Source: a virus (Duplodnaviria; Heunggongvirae; Uroviricota; Caudoviricetes). From it: a stretch of DNA of 54,334 nt. Location of the stretch: IMG/VR virus record IMGVR_UViG_2541047874_000003. One strand, given 5' to 3'. The position numbers are program-made. Below, one piece after another: positions 21,001 to 27,000 of the stretch (positions within the stretch are counted from its first letter, which is position 1; each line of letters starts with the position of its first letter).

Positions 21001-24000
21001 TATTGCAGCAAGGTGGTTATAATTGAAAGAATATTTAGATATGAATACATCTCATGTAAGAGTTGTTACTCATATGTGTGGGTTCCTGGTTTGGCTCTAT
21101 AGTCTTTCAATGTTGCCACCAATGGTTGTAGCATTGTTTTATAAAGAAAAAAGCCTGTTCGTTTTCTTTATAACTTTCGTTATATTTTTTTGCATTGGTG
21201 GCGGAGCGTGGTATACAACTAAGAAATCTGGCATTCAATTACGTACCCGTGATGGGTTTATTATAATTGTAATGTTTTGGATTTTGTTTTCTGTTATTAG
21301 TGCATTCCCTTTATGGATTGACTCAGAACTTAATTTAACGTTCATTGATGCTCTGTTTGAAGGGGTTTCTGGAATAACAACAACAGGAGCAACTGTAATT
21401 GATGATGTTAGTTCATTACCTCGGGCATATTTGTACTATCGGTCACAGTTAAATTTTATAGGTGGTTTAGGAGTTATTGTTCTGGCGGTTGCTGTATTGC
21501 CATTATTGGGTATTGGTGGTGCAAAGCTTTATCAGTCAGAAATGCCGGGGCCATTTAAGGATGACAAACTCACTCCCCGCCTGGCCGATACGTCACGGAC
21601 ACTGTGGATAACTTATTCTTTATTAGGTATTGCTTGTATTGTCTGTTATAGACTTGCAGGAATGCCTTTGTTTGATGCTATTTGTCACGGGATTTCCACA
21701 GTTTCGCTTGGTGGTTTCTCAACTCATAGCGAGAGTATCGGATATTTTAATAACTATTTGGTTGAGCTGGTGGCTGGTTCTTTTTCCCTGCTATCGGCTT
21801 TCAACTTCACTCTTTGGTATATTGTTATTAGCAGGAAAACGATAAAACCTTTAATCAGAGATATTGAACTTCGTTTCTTTCTGTTAATAGCCTTAGGGGT
21901 GATCATTGTTACCTCTTTCCAGGTCTGGCATATAGGTATGTATGACTTGCATGGAAGTTTTATTCATTCGTTTTTTCTTGCCAGCTCCATGCTCACTGAT
22001 AATGGTTTAGCTACGCAGGATTATGCAAGTTGGCCCACGCACACGATAGTGTTTTTGCTGTTGTCAAGTTTCTTTGGGGGATGTATAGGTTCAACTTGTG
22101 GTGGAATTAAGTCACTTCGATTTCTTATACTTTTCAAACAAAGCAAACACGAGATAAATCAGCTTTCTCATCCCAGAGCGTTGTTGAGTGTAAATGTAGG
22201 AGGGAAGATAGTTACAGATCGTGTAATGAGGTCTGTATGGAGTTTCTTTTTTCTTTATACTCTCTTCACGGTGTTTTTTATACTGGTGTTAAATGGTATG
22301 GGATATGATTTTCTTACATCATTTGCAACAGTGGCTGCATGTATTAATAATATGGGATTAGGTTTTGGGGCTACTGCATCGTCATTCGGAGTGCTTAATG
22401 ACATTGCAAAATGTTTAATGTGCATAGCTATGATTCTTGGTCGCCTTGAAATTTATCCTGTTATTATATTGTTTTCAGGTTTTTTTTGGCGCTCCTAATA
22501 TATGGCTGATTTATAATTGTGAGTTTAATATTATGTTGACTCACTCATTGATCCAATACCTAACTTTACCAGCAACACCTCCGTCCCCAGTAGCACTGGC
22601 TGCTGGGGTGCGTTTTATTCATAAAGCAAGGCTGTATGAGCGAGAAATTAAAGATAGTCTATCGCCCATTACAAGAATTGTCACCGTATGCGCACAACGC
22701 CAGGACGCACAGTACTGAGCAGGTGGCACAACTGGTAGAAAGTATTAAGCAATTCGGCTGGACTAATCCGGTGCTGATTGACGAAAAGGGCGAAATTATT
22801 GCGGGTCACGGTCGTGTTATGGCGGCTGAAATGCTCAAAATGGATTCTGTTCCGGTCATTGTTCTGTCTGGCCTGACGGATGAGCAGAAAAAGGCGTACC
22901 GCCTGGCAGATAATCGCCTGCCGATGAATGCTGGCTGGGATGAAGATCTGTTGCGGATGGAGCTGTCGGACCTAATCAATGCTGATTTTGATGTCTCCCT
23001 GACAGGCTTCATCCCGACAGAAATTGATGAACTGTTGACGGATGTTTTGCCCGGTACAGGAAATGAGGAGGAGCCGTATACGACGAAAATTGATACGCCT
23101 GTTTATGAGCCGTCGGGCGGTAAACCGGATATCAGTGAACTGTACGACGATACGAAAACTCAGGAGCTGATCAGCCGGATACGTTCGGCGTCCCTTGAGC
23201 CTGATATTGAGAAATTCCTCCTGTGTGCGGCAGAACGTCACACGGTGTTTAATTTCAGCAGAATTGCGGACTATTACGCTCATGCCCCCGCTGAAATTCA
23301 GTGTTTTTTCGAGGAGTCGGCGCTGGTGATCATTGATTATCAGCAGGCTATTGAAAATGGATTTGTCCGGATGACGCAGCGCATGGTGGAGATCATGCAT
23401 GGTGGTGAGGAGGAGGAATATGCGTGATGATTTTTGCGCCTTTATTCTGACTCACGGGCGACCGGACAAAGTTCTGACTTACCGGACGTTGCGTCGTGCT
23501 GGCTATACCGGGAAAATTTTTATCGTTGTTGATGATGAAGATAAGACACGGCATCAGTACATGGCTGAATTTGGTGAACAGGTGCTGGTGTTTTCCAAAG
23601 CCGATATCGCCAGTCGTTTTGACGAAGCCGATAATTTCTGTGACCGCCGCTCAATTTTTTACGCCCGTAATGCCTGTTTCGACCAGGCAAAACTGGTCGG
23701 GTGTAAATACTTCATTCAGCTCGATGATGATTATCACGAGTTCCAGTTTCGGGTGGATCGCAACTATGACCAGGCCTATTTTCCGATAAGGAAACTGGAT
23801 GCGATCCTTTCTGAAATGCTGGCGTACTACGAATCAATACCTGCTCTTTCCATCGCTATGTCGCAGGGCGGGGATTTTCTTGGTGACAATGGCGGCCATG
23901 CTTCGTGGGTGAAACGCAAGGCAATGAACAGCTTTATCTGTTCGGTTGATCGACCGTTCTCATTCATGGGGCGCATTAACGAGGATGTGAATACGTACAC

Positions 24001-27000
24001 GAATCTCGGTCGCTGTGGTGAATTGTTTATGACGATCGGTGCTGTCCAGTTAGGGCAGAAACAGACGCAGAAAAACAGCGGCGGAATGACCGAGCTGTAT
24101 CTGGATTCCGGAACCTACGTTAAAAGTTTTTACTCCGTCATGTATGCGCCGTCGTGCGTAAAAATCTCACTGATGGGTGCCAGCCATAAACGCATTCACC
24201 ATCAGGTCACCTGGAACAACGCTGCAGTAAAAATCCTTCACGAAAAATACAGGAAGAAGACACCCTGCATATCAATGGGGGTGACAAATGATTCCGTATT
24301 CGAAAGTCGAGTCTCTGGCAGCGTGCCGGATGACTGCACAACAAATCGCTGACGTTCTGGATGTTGATCTGAACCGACTGAAAGAAAATCGGGAAGCAAT
24401 GACAGATTTTTATGCGGCCATCCGTAAGGGCAGAGCGAAAGGTGAAGCCGAGTTACGAGCGGCATTGTTTAAGCTTGCCAGAAAAGGGGATGCCTTTGCT
24501 CTGCGCGAACTACTCAGGGTGGATAAAAATCAGGACTAACTGATGAGCAGACCGGACTGGGGGGCGTTGCAGCAGGAGTATATTGCTGAATACACCCGCT
24601 CCGGTATATCTCCGGTGGCATGGTGTGAAGCAAGGGGACTGAATTACGCAACAGCCCGTCGTTACATCAAAAAAACTCCGAAAAATGCGCAGACAGAAAT
24701 GTGCAAAACTGCGCAAAAAAGTGCGCAGAAAAAATCTGCGCAGACTGCACAAAAGCGGAACGAAAAATCTCAGGAAAAAAAGCCAGTATTCGATGCGGGC
24801 CTGAATGAGGGCGACGCGGAGGAATTTTCGTTCTGTCCCGATGAATTCGGCATTTCTGACCAGCAGGCTAAGTTTGCGATGCTTGTTGCTCAGGGTAAAA
24901 AGCCGACAGAGGCGTACCGACTAGCCGGTTATGAGGGGCAAGGTGCGACAGCTAACAGCAACGCCAGTCGTATGCTTAGAAATGCCAGGGTTTTTCGCGC
25001 TATCAGCTACTTCCGCAATCAGTACCAGAAACGCTATACCGCAGACCTGGATTTACTAGTGAGTCAGTTGATGGCTATTGTCCTGGCCGACCCCAATCAG
25101 CTTGCACAATTTCGCCGTGTTAACTGCCGTTATTGCTGGGGCGAGAATCATCTCTACCAGTGGCGCGATATAGCAGAATTCGACAAGGCAGCGGCGCAGG
25201 CTTCCAGAGATGGCAAACCCGAACCGGAATATGGAGGCCTCGGCTTTGTTGATAACGCCATACCCAATCCGGACTGCCCGAAGTGCTGCGGTGAGGGAAC
25301 GGGACAGCTTTATATGGCTGATACCACTCTGCTTGATGGGGATGCGCGGCAATTATATGCAGGGGCAAAATTCGGAAAATTCGGCGTTGAGATCCTGCTG
25401 GAGGATAAGGCTGCCGCCCGGCGTGAATTGTTGCGTTTGTTTTCTGCTGGCGGGGCTTTATGTGCAGATAAGCGGCTACAGGAACTGGAAATTGAACGGC
25501 GCAGAATGGAAAACCAGAAGCTGCGCAAAGAGATCGAAACGGTGGAAGATAATGAACATCCCCAGCCTGTGGCGATCAATATTAATGTGGTTGATGCCAG
25601 AGTAAGGAGTGATGAAGATGATCTCTCCGACGCTTAATGTGCCTCAGGCGCGATTTCTTTCAATGCCCCATAAATTTAAAGCCTATATTGCTGGTTTTGG
25701 CTCGGGCAAAACATGGGTTGGGTGTGGCGGCATATGCAAGGGGATTTGGGAGCATCCAGGTATAAATCAGGGATATTTTGCGCCAACGTATCCCCAAATT
25801 CGCGATATTTTTTACCCTACAGTGGAAGAAGTTGCTGCTGACTGGGGATTGAACGTAAAAATTAATGAGGGAAATAAAGAGGTTCACTTTTATTACGGAC
25901 GCCAGTATCGGGGAACCACTATCTGCAGATCGATGGAGAAGCCACAAACGATCGTCGGTTTCAAAATTGGTAATGCGTTGGTGGATGAACTGGACATTTT
26001 GCCGAAGGAAAAAGCCAGAACGGCGTGGCGCAAGATAATTGCACGTATGCGTTATAAGATTGATGGACTTCGCAACGGTATTGACGTTACAACCACGCCG
26101 GAAGGATTCAAATTTGTCTACGAGCAGTTTGTTAAAGCCGTGCGTGAAAAAACAGAGCTGGCCTCACTGTATGGTCTGGTGCAGGCATCTACTTTCGATA
26201 ATGAAAAGAACCTGCCAGCAGATTACATTCCTTCGCTTCTTGAATCATACCCTCCAGAGCTGATTAAAGCCTATCTTCGAGGACAGTTTACTAACCTGAC
26301 AAGTGGTACTGTTTACCATCAGTTTGACCGGAAACTGAATAATTGCGAAGAAGTGGAGCAGCCAGGGGAGCCGATTTATATTGGGATGGATTTTAACGTT
26401 GGAAAGATGGCGGGAATCGTCCATGTGCTGCGTTTGGGGCTTCCATGTGCGGTAACTGAAATCATCAATGCCTACGATACGCCGGATATGATCCGCATCA
26501 TTAAAGAACGCTTCTGGCTGTATGATGGGAATGATTACCGGAAAGTGAGGGAAATTTATATTTATCCAGATGCTTCCGGGGATTCCAGAAAATCAAGTAA
26601 CGCAAGTACGACGGATATAGCCCAGCTTAAGCAGGCTGGTTTTAACGTTGTGGTGAACAGCTCGAACCCGCCAGTAAAAGATCGCGTTAACTCAATGAAT
26701 GCAATGTTCTGCAATGCCAATGGTGAGCGTCGCTATAAAGTTAATGTGAAGCGTTGCCCGTTATATGCCGAATCTCTGGAGCAACAAGTCTGGGATGAGA
26801 AGGGGGAGCCTGATAAAAAATCTGGCAATGATCACCCGAATGATGCCGGAGGTTATTTCATCGTTAAGCAATTCCCTATTGTCAAACCGACCGGAAGAGT
26901 CACATCACTTCGGATTTAATTATGGCTGATATATCAACACCCAACCTCGACTATAACGATATGCTGGAGGCGTGGGATATTAACGACGCACTGATGGGCG

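What the first reader, a model, noticed from the sequence alone, without database searches (positions are those of the whole stretch)
22636..24352. ParB-like nuclease-domain protein paired with a GT-A-like protein upstream of the terminase
A ParB N-domain protein (22636..23427) is followed, with start overlapping its stop, by a ~310-aa protein with glycosyltransferase-like N-terminal and DxD motifs. ParB-domain proteins in phages are often associated with DNA-modification or anti-restriction functions, and a sugar transferase beside one could indicate DNA or virion glycosylation, or an anti-defence role. Neither is a standard lambda gene.
Basis: inference. Interest (0 to 1): 0.5.

Follow-up and report, generated by a model that had tools for sequence, protein, structure and literature searches.

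The report
Phage ParB-partnered sugar transferase pair
Two overlapping late genes of an E. coli prophage encode a sugar transferase from the family that glycosylates DNA bases plus a dedicated ParB-like helper; the pair sits in front of the DNA-packaging genes of viruses from bacteria to archaea, yet lacks the base-oxidising enzyme such systems normally need, so its target is unknown.

Summary
22636-23427 encodes a 263-aa ParB/Srx-fold protein (RefSeq ynaK). 23420-24352 encodes a 310-aa GT-A glycosyltransferase of Pfam family TAGT (1.4e-34), which RefSeq calls "GREB1-related". The GT start overlaps the ParB stop by 8 nt (ATGCGTGA) behind a GAGGAGG ribosome-binding site.

The window is a lambdoid E. 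coli prophage with a Rac-type late region. About 16% of complete E. coli genomes carry the pair.

The two genes are an obligate unit:
- In 102 dereplicated viral loci with enough upstream sequence, ParB abuts TAGT in 91, lies one gene away in 11 and is never absent.
- All 74 new loci found through the ParB C-terminal domain carry TAGT.
- The pair almost always heads the terminase/portal module, whatever the terminase type, in Proteobacteria, Firmicutes, Bacteroidota and a haloarchaeal virus.
- Both genes are under strong purifying selection (dN/dS 0.06-0.15).

Unlike the published 5mYOX(TET/JBP)-ParB-GT clusters, no dioxygenase or hydroxymethylase is present in the window, in complete small phage genomes or recurrently near the pair. 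Optional neighbours are sugar-donor and tailoring enzymes.

Best reading: a late, packaging-linked DNA glycosylation module with an unknown acceptor. It is a new variant of a known kind and can be tested directly in E. coli.

The parts
22585..22608 (+). Terminator-like hairpin closing the trkG moron, which marks the upstream boundary of the module. The ParB gene starts 28 nt downstream.
   Evidence: Stem of 10 pairs followed by TGCGTTTTAT. TrkH Pfam match for 21023-22498.
22636..23427 (+). ParB/Srx-fold partner protein (263 aa; RefSeq ynaK). It is very acidic, with pI 4.5 and net charge about -25.
22636..23040 (+). N-terminal ParB/Srx nucleotide-binding domain (residues 1-135). Motifs are N21-A-R23-T-H25, G57-H58-G59-R60 (canonical GERR altered, with the hydrolysis Glu lost) and D92-N93.
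23077..23112 (+). Conserved linker motif Y148-T-x-K-I-x-x-P155-x-Y157-E158-P159 inside a region that is otherwise disordered. Candidate docking peptide or acceptor peptide.
   Evidence: Y148, P155, Y157 and E158 are invariant from E. coli to Lactobacillus phages and haloarchaeal HHTV-2. pLDDT is below 50 for residues 136-169.
23146..23424 (+). C-terminal helical domain (residues 171-263) specific to this ParB subfamily. R201, H202, E226 and D234 are invariant.
   Evidence: Alignments A2 and A3. No structural match. A scan seeded on this domain retrieved only loci that also carry TAGT, 74 of 74.
23407..23427 (+). Translational-coupling junction: SD-like GAGGAGGAGGAA, then the TAGT ATG at 23420, which overlaps the ParB TAT-GCG-TGA by 8 nt.
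   Evidence: Read directly from the sequence. Overlapping ParB-TAGT junctions are the rule in other loci.
23420..24352 (+). TAGT-family GT-A glycosyltransferase (310 aa; RefSeq 'GREB1-related protein'). The last ~22 residues are an extension specific to the E. coli lineage.
   Evidence: Pfam PF20691 1.4e-34 and PHROG 842 6.1e-104. GT-A fold. Homologues are ~288 aa. dN/dS 0.06-0.08. No hydrophobic segment.
23459..23461 (+). Invariant R14 (HGRPD), the first element of the R...DDD...ED active-site signature of the GT-A DNA glycosyltransferases.
   Evidence: Invariant in A1 and A4. The motif is described in bioRxiv 10.1101/2023.12.21.572611.
23723..23731 (+). D102-D103-D104 (QLDDDY), the DxD metal and nucleotide-sugar binding motif.
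   Evidence: Invariant in A1 and A4.
23978..23986 (+). N187-E188-D189 (RINEDVNTY), the 'ED' element of the signature.
   Evidence: N187 and D189 are invariant across all seven distant homologues. E188 is invariant among 20 homologues at 59-82% identity to the window protein.
24330..24539 (+). Small ORF (69 aa) overlapping the TAGT 3' end by 23 nt. It is probably a packaging or TerS-associated helix-turn-helix protein and is context rather than part of the core module.
   Evidence: PHROG 309 'terminase small subunit', positions 145-218, 8.3e-23. RefSeq CDS. Sequence.
24543..26919 (+). Terminase small subunit (24543-25637) and large subunit (25609-26919). These form the conserved downstream context of the pair.
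   Evidence: Pfam Terminase_2, Terminase_6N and Terminase_6C. Downstream terminase and portal genes in most loci.

Best explanation
The two genes form one late-expressed, translationally coupled module. The second protein is a soluble, metal-dependent GT-A sugar transferase of the TAGT family, which uses a nucleotide-activated donor. The first is its dedicated partner: a ParB/Srx-fold NTP-binding domain, a conserved linker peptide and a private C-terminal domain. By analogy with the ParB activators of phage thymine dioxygenases and with ParB domains fused to DNA methyltransferases, the partner is proposed to switch on or target the transferase on double-stranded DNA. Because the pair is made together with terminase, it would glycosylate replicated phage DNA just before or during packaging. 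The progeny genome would then be protected from nucleases in the next host, following the logic of Mu Mom. Shown here: the fold and family of both proteins, intact catalytic motifs, obligate pairing, the position at the head of the packaging module, purifying selection, and the absence of any dioxygenase or hydroxymethylase. Inferred only: that DNA is the acceptor, that the ParB protein activates or targets the enzyme, and that the benefit is anti-restriction. The chemical acceptor on DNA is unknown, because no 5hmC- or 5hmU-forming enzyme is encoded.
For: Obligate pairing: ParB abuts TAGT in 91 of 102 dereplicated loci, lies one gene away in 11 and is absent in none. All 74 loci seeded on the ParB C-terminal domain carry TAGT.
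Coupling: an 8-nt overlap with an SD sequence.
DNA link: the ParB N-domain is closest to ParB domains fused to DNA methyltransferases. ParB-like proteins activate phage T-dioxygenases on dsDNA (PMC13229309).
Universal acceptor: the same pair, at 38-47% identity, occurs in Lactobacillus and Nocardia phages and in haloarchaeal HHTV-2, and at 27% in Porphyromonas phages, alongside unrelated terminase and capsid types. A target specific to one phage or one host is therefore unlikely.
Lytic-cycle role: the pair heads the late or packaging operon. It comprises the first two genes after cos in phage c5, whose annotation shows no integrase.
Both genes are functional: dN/dS 0.06-0.15.
Variable neighbours and fusions are donor-synthesis and glycan-tailoring enzymes: a cytidylyltransferase-phosphatase fusion, an epimerase, radical SAM enzymes, a kinase, methyltransferases, a sulfotransferase and a second GT. 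This is typical of hypermodification clusters.
Against: No enzyme that could create a hydroxyl acceptor on a base was found. This holds for the window, for the complete phage c5 genome, for the phi jlb1 early region, and for ORFs recurring near the pair: none among 150 ORFs within 6 kb upstream and none among cluster representatives. All characterised TAGT enzymes need such an acceptor.
The ParB partner has no recognisable DNA-binding domain and is strongly acidic in all three parts (net charge -25). That is odd for a DNA clamp.
One family member, GREB1, glycosylates a protein (PMC7968844).
The authors of the GT survey regard GT contigs without 5mYOX or ThyS as less obviously DNA-directed.
No modification has been reported for any phage that carries the pair.
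Confidence: 0.45

Rival explanations
1. Protein glycosylation. The transferase O-glycosylates a protein, most economically its own ParB partner at the invariant Tyr/Thr linker motif (Y148-T149...Y157). Alternatively it targets a packaging protein. The glycosylated ParB-like protein would then be the effector, for example an acidic DNA-mimic or anti-defence factor.
For: GREB1, a TAGT-domain protein, O-GlcNAcylates ER-alpha. The ParB linker motif, with invariant Tyr and near-invariant Thr/Ser residues in a disordered stretch, is conserved from bacteria to archaea. The partner travels with the GT in every locus, so it satisfies the requirement for a universal acceptor. The partner is very acidic and lacks a DNA-binding domain. 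Glycogenin, a self-glucosylating GT-A enzyme, is among the structural neighbours.
Against: Most characterised TAGT enzymes act on DNA. The ParB N-domain is closest to those fused to DNA methyltransferases. Elaborate tailoring enzymes and second GTs resemble DNA hypermodification clusters. Terminase, portal and capsid types differ between carriers, which excludes a specific virion protein as the target.
Confidence: 0.2
2. Nucleotide or small-molecule glycosylation. The ParB/Srx domain binds an NTP or another nucleotide and the GT glycosylates it or a related metabolite. This would make or destroy a signalling or defence-related molecule late in infection.
For: ParB/Srx folds bind CTP, ATP or GTP and include small-molecule kinases such as SerK and SbnI. 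Nucleotides are universal, as the distribution requires. A nucleotidyltransferase-phosphatase fusion and radical SAM enzymes are recurrent neighbours.
Against: No precedent exists in the TAGT family. The neighbours are equally well explained as enzymes for sugar-donor synthesis. The conserved placement at the packaging module is left unexplained.
Confidence: 0.1
3. Packaging accessory. The ParB-like protein is a nuclease or a pac/cos-recognition factor for terminase, and the GT has an unrelated or dispensable role.
For: The pair lies immediately upstream of TerS and TerL in most loci. 'ParB-like nuclease' is the traditional annotation.
Against: The ParB subfamily tracks the GT (74 of 74), not the terminase family, which varies among Terminase_6, Terminase_3, Terminase_4/TerL_ATPase and GpA types. 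In Vibrio jumbo phages TAGT sits among replication genes. Most phages with the same terminase types lack the pair.
Confidence: 0.07
4. Cell-envelope glycan modification, meaning seroconversion or superinfection exclusion, as with Gtr or TarP-type prophage glycosyltransferases.
For: TarP and other envelope GT-A enzymes are structural neighbours. Heptosyltransferase and GT1 genes occasionally occur nearby.
Against: Both proteins lack any hydrophobic segment. No GtrA-, GtrB- or flippase-like partner is present. The genes lie in the late operon behind the lysis genes rather than being expressed in the lysogen. They occur in phage c5, whose annotation shows no integrase, and in a haloarchaeal virus whose host envelope is unrelated. 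The ParB pairing has no rationale under this reading.
Confidence: 0.05
5. Decaying remnant of a 5mYOX-ParB-GT cassette that lost its dioxygenase, for example to the trkG insertion, and is no longer functional.
For: The published clusters combine a 5mYOX, ParB, a GT and terminase. A moron (trkG) sits directly upstream in the window. The pair is truncated in many E. coli genomes, including K-12, where ynaK is an 87-aa remnant.
Against: dN/dS is 0.06-0.15 with saturated synonymous sites. All catalytic motifs are intact. The same dioxygenase-less architecture recurs in more than 100 dereplicated loci across phyla and in complete small genomes.
Confidence: 0.03

Closest known systems
Phage 5mYOX(TET/JBP)-ParB-glycosyltransferase DNA hypermodification clusters (Burke 2021, PMC8256090; O'Toole 2026, PMC13229309; bioRxiv 10.1101/2023.12.21.572611)
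   Same: A GT-A/TAGT-type transferase carrying the R...DDD...ED signature. A ParB-like protein with a nucleotide-binding domain and a C-terminal domain but no DNA-binding domain. Frequent neighbourhood with terminase. Optional epimerases, kinases, O-methyltransferases and second GTs.
   Different: No 5-methylpyrimidine dioxygenase, C5-methyltransferase or thymidylate-synthase-like hydroxymethylase is present. Here the ParB protein is coupled directly to the GT, not to a dioxygenase. The acceptor is unknown. Whether this ParB subfamily is the one that activates 5mYOX could not be tested, because no sequences were available.
Base J glucosyltransferase (JGT) of trypanosomatids
   Same: Same Pfam family and the same active-site signature, according to the literature. 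It is a UDP-sugar-dependent GT-A enzyme acting on DNA.
   Different: JGT glucosylates 5hmU made by JBP1/2 and has no ParB partner. It is eukaryotic and nuclear.
T2/T6 beta-glucosyl-HMC-alpha-glucosyltransferase (the name given to PHROG 842; the T6 TAGT protein)
   Same: The T6 enzyme is assigned to Pfam TAGT, and PHROG 842, which the window protein matches at 6e-104, carries this enzyme's name. It is a DNA-directed sugar transferase.
   Different: The T-even enzyme adds a second glucose to glucosyl-5hmC on fully hmC-substituted DNA, an acceptor that does not exist in a lambdoid phage. tblastn of the window protein against the phage collection found no T-even phage. It has no ParB partner.
GREB1 (animal TAGT-domain protein)
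   Same: The TAGT catalytic domain. RefSeq names the window protein 'GREB1-related'.
   Different: GREB1 is a 1949-aa multidomain cytoplasmic protein reported to O-GlcNAcylate ER-alpha. It modifies a protein and has no ParB partner.
ParB-DNA methyltransferase fusion proteins of phages and prophages
   Same: The N-terminal ParB/Srx domain is the closest relative of the window protein's N-domain (phrog_498 8.9e-51; PADLOC MTase_II 1.7e-38). In both, a ParB domain is coupled to a group-transfer enzyme.
   Different: The coupling there is covalent, the enzyme is a SAM-dependent N6/N4 methyltransferase and the chemistry is known. Here the coupling is through gene overlap and the enzyme is a glycosyltransferase.
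Phage Mu Mom (functional analogy only; from general knowledge)
   Same: A late-expressed modification of the phage's own DNA shortly before packaging, thought to protect against restriction in the next host.
   Different: An unrelated protein and unrelated chemistry (acetamido-adenine). No ParB partner.

Membership tests
TAGT (Pfam PF20691, TET-associated glycosyltransferase) | Significant match to the family profile above the curated threshold | tested here: met
   120.3 bits against a cut-off of 27.5, E 1.4e-34, profile positions 4-205 of 205. The top BFVD structural hits are TAGT-domain proteins.
TAGT (Pfam PF20691, TET-associated glycosyltransferase) | GT-A (Rossmann-like, DxD) fold | tested here: met
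TAGT (Pfam PF20691, TET-associated glycosyltransferase) | [quoted passage not shown] | tested here: met
   R14 and D102-D104 are invariant, and N187-E188-D189(V) is conserved. The residue after ED is Val, not Tyr or Phe.
TAGT (Pfam PF20691, TET-associated glycosyltransferase) | Genomic association with a TET/JBP (5mYOX) dioxygenase or another source of 5hmC/5hmU | tested here: not met
   None in the RefSeq annotation of near-identical prophages, in the remaining window ORFs, in phage c5 or among recurrent neighbours.
TAGT (Pfam PF20691, TET-associated glycosyltransferase) | Transfers a sugar to a hydroxymethylpyrimidine, or to a sugar on one, in DNA | not testable with these tools
   Needs enzymology or nucleoside LC-MS.
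ParB/Srx superfamily (Pfam PF02195) | ParB N-terminal / sulfiredoxin fold | tested here: met
Canonical partition ParB (TIGR00180; ParABS) | Full ParB architecture with an HTH parS-binding domain | tested here: not met
   TIGR00180 scores 38 bits against a cut-off of 58.45 and covers residues 11-94 only. PDB profile hits cover only residues ~21-94. No HTH domain was found by Pfam.
Canonical partition ParB (TIGR00180; ParABS) | GERR CTP-binding and hydrolysis motif | tested here: not met
   The motif is G57-H58-G59-R60. The Glu and the first Arg are replaced.
Canonical partition ParB (TIGR00180; ParABS) | Neighbouring parA gene and N-terminal ParA-binding motif (L/F/I)G(K/R)G(L/F/I) | tested here: not met
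   The neighbours are trkG and TAGT. The N-terminus MSEKLKIVYRPLQ lacks the motif (sequence; motif definition).
ParB-dependent T-dioxygenase system (O'Toole et al. 2026) | ParB homologue with NBD and CTD but no DNA-binding domain | tested here: met
   NBD 1-135, disordered linker, helical CTD 171-263, no HTH. Direct homology of the CTD to the published ParB176 could not be tested.
ParB-dependent T-dioxygenase system (O'Toole et al. 2026) | Cognate clade C1 5mYOX encoded next to ParB | tested here: not met
   The gene next to ParB is TAGT in 91 of 102 loci. When another gene lies between them it is a phosphatase-nucleotidyltransferase fusion or a radical SAM enzyme.
ParB-dependent T-dioxygenase system (O'Toole et al. 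2026) | ParB activates its partner enzyme on dsDNA | not testable with these tools
   Needs co-expression or in vitro assays.
T4-type DNA alpha/beta-glucosyltransferases | GT-B fold (two Rossmann domains) | tested here: not met
   All structural neighbours are GT-A enzymes.

The most novel reading that the evidence does not exclude
The ParB-TAGT pair glycosylates canonical, non-pre-oxidised DNA. This would be chemistry without precedent for DNA: for example N-glycosylation of an exocyclic amine, comparable to arginine GlcNAcylation by GT-A enzymes of the NleB type, or O-glycosylation of DNA termini produced by terminase. The ParB/Srx partner would serve as the NTP-gated adaptor that opens or presents the DNA. 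That would define a new, very widespread class of post-replicative DNA modification, with at least 1,169 clusters at 50% identity at E<=1e-10, operating in temperate phages of E. coli and even in archaeal viruses.
Probability: 0.15. Interest if true: 0.9.

Novelty: new variant of a known kind. Interest (0 to 1): 0.55.

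Why it matters
DNA glycosylation is known in phages only on pre-formed 5hmC, 5hmU or 5-hydroxycytosine. Here a GT of that very family, always accompanied by a private ParB-like partner, is conserved across bacterial phyla and archaeal viruses without any enzyme to make such an acceptor. A published survey found that about 65% of phage GT-containing contigs lacked a neighbouring 5mYOX or ThyS and left them unexplained.

The answer could be a new DNA modification, a glycosylated ParB-like effector or a nucleotide-directed activity. Any of these would assign a function to a gene pair present in roughly one in six sequenced E. coli genomes and in more than a thousand sequence clusters. 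It would also extend the emerging idea that ParB/Srx folds act as adaptors for DNA-modifying enzymes.

Because the pair sits in an E. coli prophage, the question can be tested directly with standard plasmid expression and nucleoside LC-MS. Any resulting modification would matter for restriction evasion, for phage therapy design and for sequencing artefacts.

Tried and rejected
1. The founding computational paper on TAGT (Iyer et al. 2013, NAR 41:7635) is not held under its DOI or PMC id. What it says is cited only through later papers.

2. I tried to obtain 5mYOX and ParB176 sequences from supplements, so as to search the window directly and to test whether this ParB subfamily is the 5mYOX activator. 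No sequences are held. Absence of a dioxygenase therefore rests on Pfam scans and RefSeq annotation, not on the authors' phage-specific HMMs, which they say detect divergent members that Pfam misses.

3. The first literature search was too broad and gave nothing useful.

4. The first viral-contig scan returned almost only near-identical E. coli prophages. I repeated it with the haloarchaeal homologue as lead sequence.

5. My own greedy ORF caller produced four false 'no ParB upstream' cases in GC-rich loci. A six-frame HMM search corrected them.

6. Mirror-tree test of ParB against TAGT distances: Pearson/Mantel r 0.32 (0 of 999 permutations reached it) but Spearman only 0.10. Distances are saturated, so this is not used as evidence.

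7. I looked for ParB-TAGT fusion proteins as a Rosetta-stone link. None appeared among the 11 long proteins I inspected from the best 150 cluster representatives. Those fusions are with a kinase, methyltransferases, a sulfotransferase or a second GT.

8. The C-terminal domain of ParB was considered as a hidden dioxygenase. I rejected this because it is about 90 residues, predicted helical, and has no DSBH-like match.

9. The AFDB Foldseek library was unavailable, so JGT and GREB1 similarity was not checked structurally.

10. PADLOC gave no defence-system assignment for the GT.

11. A search for reports on Lactobacillus phages that carry the pair found nothing relevant.

Full report
**1. What is in the window**

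The window is a lambdoid prophage of E. coli. Its left part resembles prophages integrated next to tRNA-Arg beside the fim/sfm genes. It carries exo/bet/gam, a cI-like repressor, O/P replication genes, the nin region and a Q antiterminator. From the lysis genes rightwards it is Rac-type: essD-rrrD-Rz, trkG, ynaK, and then terminase, portal, head and tail genes.

Stretch 22436-24552 is 100% identical to strain NCTC9699. It is found in 1619 of 5426 complete E. coli genomes, and 867 of them hold at least 80% of it.

RefSeq calls the first gene "ynaK: ParB/Srx family N-terminal domain-containing protein". It calls the second either "GREB1-related protein" or "hypothetical protein".

**2. Check of the observation**

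ORF 22636-23427 (263 aa) and the following ORF are real and intact. Homologue alignments and RefSeq place the second start at ATG 23420, not 23399, which gives a 310-aa product.

The junction reads GAGGAGGAGGAA-T-ATG-CG-TGA. The GT start overlaps the ParB stop by 8 nt and follows a strong Shine-Dalgarno-like run. The GT stop in turn overlaps a 69-aa ORF (24330-24539) by 23 nt. TerS starts 4 nt after that ORF, and TerL overlaps TerS.

Upstream, a terminator-like hairpin (22585-22608) closes the trkG moron. The pair therefore opens a tightly packed packaging operon.

**3. Identity of the two proteins**

*The GT*
- It matches Pfam PF20691 "TET-Associated Glycosyltransferase" at 1.4e-34, and PHROG 842 at 6.1e-104.
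- No solved structure is detectable by sequence.
- The signature reported for phage GT-A DNA glycosyltransferases and trypanosome JGT is R...DDD...ED. It is present here as R14, D102-D104 and N187-E188-D189.
- The protein has no hydrophobic segment.
- Its residues 231-288 are strongly basic, with pI 9.95.

*The ParB-like protein*
- A disordered linker follows, carrying an invariant motif Y-T-x-K-I-x-x-P-x-Y-E-P.
- It ends in a roughly 90-residue helical C-terminal domain with no structural match.
- It is not a partition ParB. TIGR00180 scores below its cut-off, there is no HTH, no parA gene lies nearby, and the GERR box reads GHGR.
- Its N-domain is closest to ParB domains that are fused to DNA methyltransferases: phrog_498 at 8.9e-51 and PADLOC MTase_II at 1.7e-38. 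[quoted passage not shown]
- The whole protein is very acidic, with pI 4.5 and net charge about -25.

**4. The pair is an obligate, widespread unit**

Relatives of both proteins number in the thousands. A profile search of 1.84 billion cluster representatives finds 1493 TAGT clusters at E<=1e-3 and 710 at E<=1e-30.

The same ParB-then-TAGT arrangement, with overlapping genes, occurs in the following places:
- Yersinia prophages;
- metagenomic phages with HK97-type or lambda GpA-type terminases;
- Lactobacillus phages phi jlb1 and c5 (in c5 these are ORF1 and ORF2, directly after cos);
- Porphyromonas phages;
- the haloarchaeal virus HHTV-2, at 43% identity.

I pooled 249 loci and dereplicated them at 85% TAGT identity into 112 clusters. 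Of the 102 clusters with enough upstream sequence, ParB abuts TAGT in 91, lies one gene away in 11 and is absent in none.

In the reverse direction, I scanned IMG/VR with patterns from the ParB C-terminal domain. This gave 74 new loci, and all 74 carry TAGT.

Downstream, ten TerL seeds find a terminase within 4 kb in 45 of 76 clusters. In the other 31 clusters, the large downstream ORFs are mostly Terminase_3 or Terminase_6 proteins and portal proteins.

Both genes are under strong purifying selection. dN/dS is 0.11-0.15 for ParB and 0.06-0.08 for TAGT, and synonymous sites are saturated in more distant comparisons.

**5. What is missing**

In the characterised systems, TAGT-type enzymes glycosylate 5hmC or 5hmU. 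Those bases are made by a 5-methylpyrimidine dioxygenase (TET/JBP) or a hydroxymethylase. ParB-like proteins there activate the dioxygenase on dsDNA.

No such enzyme is encoded here. The evidence:
- It is absent from the RefSeq annotation of near-identical prophages.
- It is absent from the window ORFs that those annotations do not cover. These are a HipA_2/DUF3037 pair, an IS256-type transposase, AraC regulators, an omptin and an IS3 transposase.
- It is absent from the complete 31.8-kb genome of phage c5, both in the annotation and in Pfam scans of its unnamed ORFs.
- It is absent from the early region of phi jlb1.
- Among 150 ORFs of at least 170 aa lying within 6 kb upstream of the pair in dereplicated loci, no dioxygenase or thymidylate-synthase family is matched by two or more ORFs. 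The recurrent families are replication and recombination proteins.

One caveat applies. O'Toole et al. note that their phage-specific HMMs find 5mYOX members that Pfam misses, and I could not obtain those models.

**6. What does accompany the pair**

The variable extras are enzymes that make or tailor activated sugars:
- a histidine-phosphatase plus cytidylyl/adenylyl-transferase fusion inserted between ParB and TAGT in 12 of the 74 loci;
- NAD-dependent epimerase/dehydratases and, in one locus, a UDP-glucose dehydrogenase;
- radical SAM enzymes in at least five loci;
- fusions of TAGT to a P-loop kinase, a SAM methyltransferase, a sulfotransferase or a second TAGT domain.

This is the make-up of a glycan-building hypermodification cluster with ParB-TAGT as its invariant core.

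**7. Mechanism**

The carriers have unrelated structural and packaging modules, and their hosts range from E. coli to Haloarcula. The acceptor must therefore be something universal: DNA, a nucleotide, or the co-travelling ParB protein itself.

Three lines of evidence favour DNA:
- the family's precedents;
- the kinship of this ParB N-domain with ParB domains fused to DNA methyltransferases;
- the published role of ParB as an activator of a DNA-modifying enzyme.

Late expression at the head of the packaging operon fits a post-replicative modification laid down just before encapsidation, and the pair occurs in phage c5, whose annotation lists no integrase.

I therefore propose that an NTP-binding ParB/Srx adaptor activates or targets the GT-A enzyme to glycosylate phage DNA. 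The likely benefit is anti-restriction. My confidence is about 0.45.

The weak points are the missing hydroxyl acceptor and the strong acidity of the partner, which lacks a DNA-binding domain. These keep alive a self- or protein-glycosylation model in which the invariant Tyr/Thr linker motif is the acceptor (0.2) and a nucleotide-directed activity (0.1). The remaining rivals are poorly supported:
- The packaging-accessory reading fails because the ParB protein tracks the GT, not the terminase type.
- The envelope-modification reading fails because both proteins are soluble, the genes lie in the late operon, and the pair occurs in c5, which has no annotated integrase, and in an archaeal virus.
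- The decaying-remnant reading fails on the selection and distribution data.

**8. Comparison with what is known, and novelty**

The proteins are members of known families (TAGT and ParB/Srx), and the genes are annotated in RefSeq. Co-occurrence of GT, ParB and terminase has been noted around phage 5mYOX genes.

The papers I could read do not describe a stand-alone, obligate ParB-TAGT pair without a dioxygenase. They also do not describe its private ParB C-terminal domain and linker motif, or its fixed place ahead of terminase from bacteria to archaea. [quoted passage not shown]

I rate this a new variant of a known kind. It is of moderate-to-good interest because the unknown acceptor can be identified directly in E. 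coli.

**9. A side note on E. coli K-12**

Its ynaK is the 87-aa remnant of this ParB gene. Overexpressing it was reported to raise the MICs of six antibiotics (PMC12924614). This says nothing clear about the native function.

Noticed in passing
window 5305-6881 (- strand): An overlapping gene pair, HipA_2-type kinase (6129-6881) and a DUF3037 protein (5305-6147), sits in the immunity region of the prophage. It matches the PADLOC candidate defence system PDC-M66 A/B (3.4e-14 and 4e-16).
   Followed up: partly
window 15357-16677: An IS256/Mutator-family insertion sequence (transposase 15432-16640; 33-nt imperfect inverted repeats at 15357-15389 and 16645-16677) lies 54 bp downstream of the Q antiterminator ORF (14911-15303). 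The late promoter and qut site would be expected there, so late transcription, including the ParB-TAGT pair, may be crippled in this prophage copy.
   Followed up: partly
window 21023-22608: trkG (a potassium transporter moron with low GC, 0.38-0.42) and its own terminator-like hairpin occupy the slot between the lysis genes and ParB. In a Yersinia prophage the same slot, directly upstream of ParB, holds heat-labile-enterotoxin-like A and B subunit genes (L007 2180-3332).
   Followed up: no
L002 (NZ_LR134228.1) 20201-20458, compared with window 22636-23427: RefSeq annotates ynaK as a truncated pseudogene ('missing C-terminus') in NCTC9699 and PSS-04. Yet the DNA of NCTC9699 is 100% identical to the window, where the 263-aa ORF is intact and aligns full-length with homologues. 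This is probably an annotation artefact caused by the 87-aa K-12 YnaK reference.
   Followed up: partly
window 24286-24352: The E. coli-lineage TAGT carries a ~22-residue C-terminal extension (…SMGVTNDSVFESRVSGSVPDDCTTNR) that the ~288-aa homologues of other genera lack. It overlaps the start of the next small ORF and looks like read-through after loss of the ancestral stop codon.
   Followed up: no
L172 826-1779, L173, L174, L175, L177, L181, L184, L190, L192, L196, L205, L211: A sub-variant of the module has a ~325-aa fusion of a histidine phosphatase (His_Phos_1) and a cytidylyl/adenylyl-transferase (glycerol-3-phosphate cytidylyltransferase or RfaE domain II-like) inserted between ParB and TAGT. 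This suggests that the phage makes an unusual activated donor.
   Followed up: partly
L112 936-1904; L102 10861-11820; L242 1649-3019; L130 6823-7788; L246 80-1042: Radical SAM enzymes (one with a SPASM domain; the best weak similarities are to MoaA and to the tungsten-cofactor maturase) recur next to the pair. In L246 the order is rSAM-ParB-(P-loop kinase::TAGT)-TerS-TerL. They could be the missing base- or sugar-activating enzymes in those variants.
   Followed up: partly
L243 (Vibrio phage pv27) 6887-7888: In ~191-kb Vibrio jumbo phages a 45%-identical TAGT sits in the replication module, immediately before a large helicase and with no annotated ParB gene abutting it. This is an exception to the packaging-module rule.
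   Followed up: no
window 48906-52704: The right end of the window carries an IS3-family transposase (48906-49811, - strand), an AraC-family regulator (50752-51501) and an omptin protease (51751-52704, - strand) in very AT-rich DNA (GC 0.32). This resembles the appY-ompT end of the DLP12 region.
   Followed up: no
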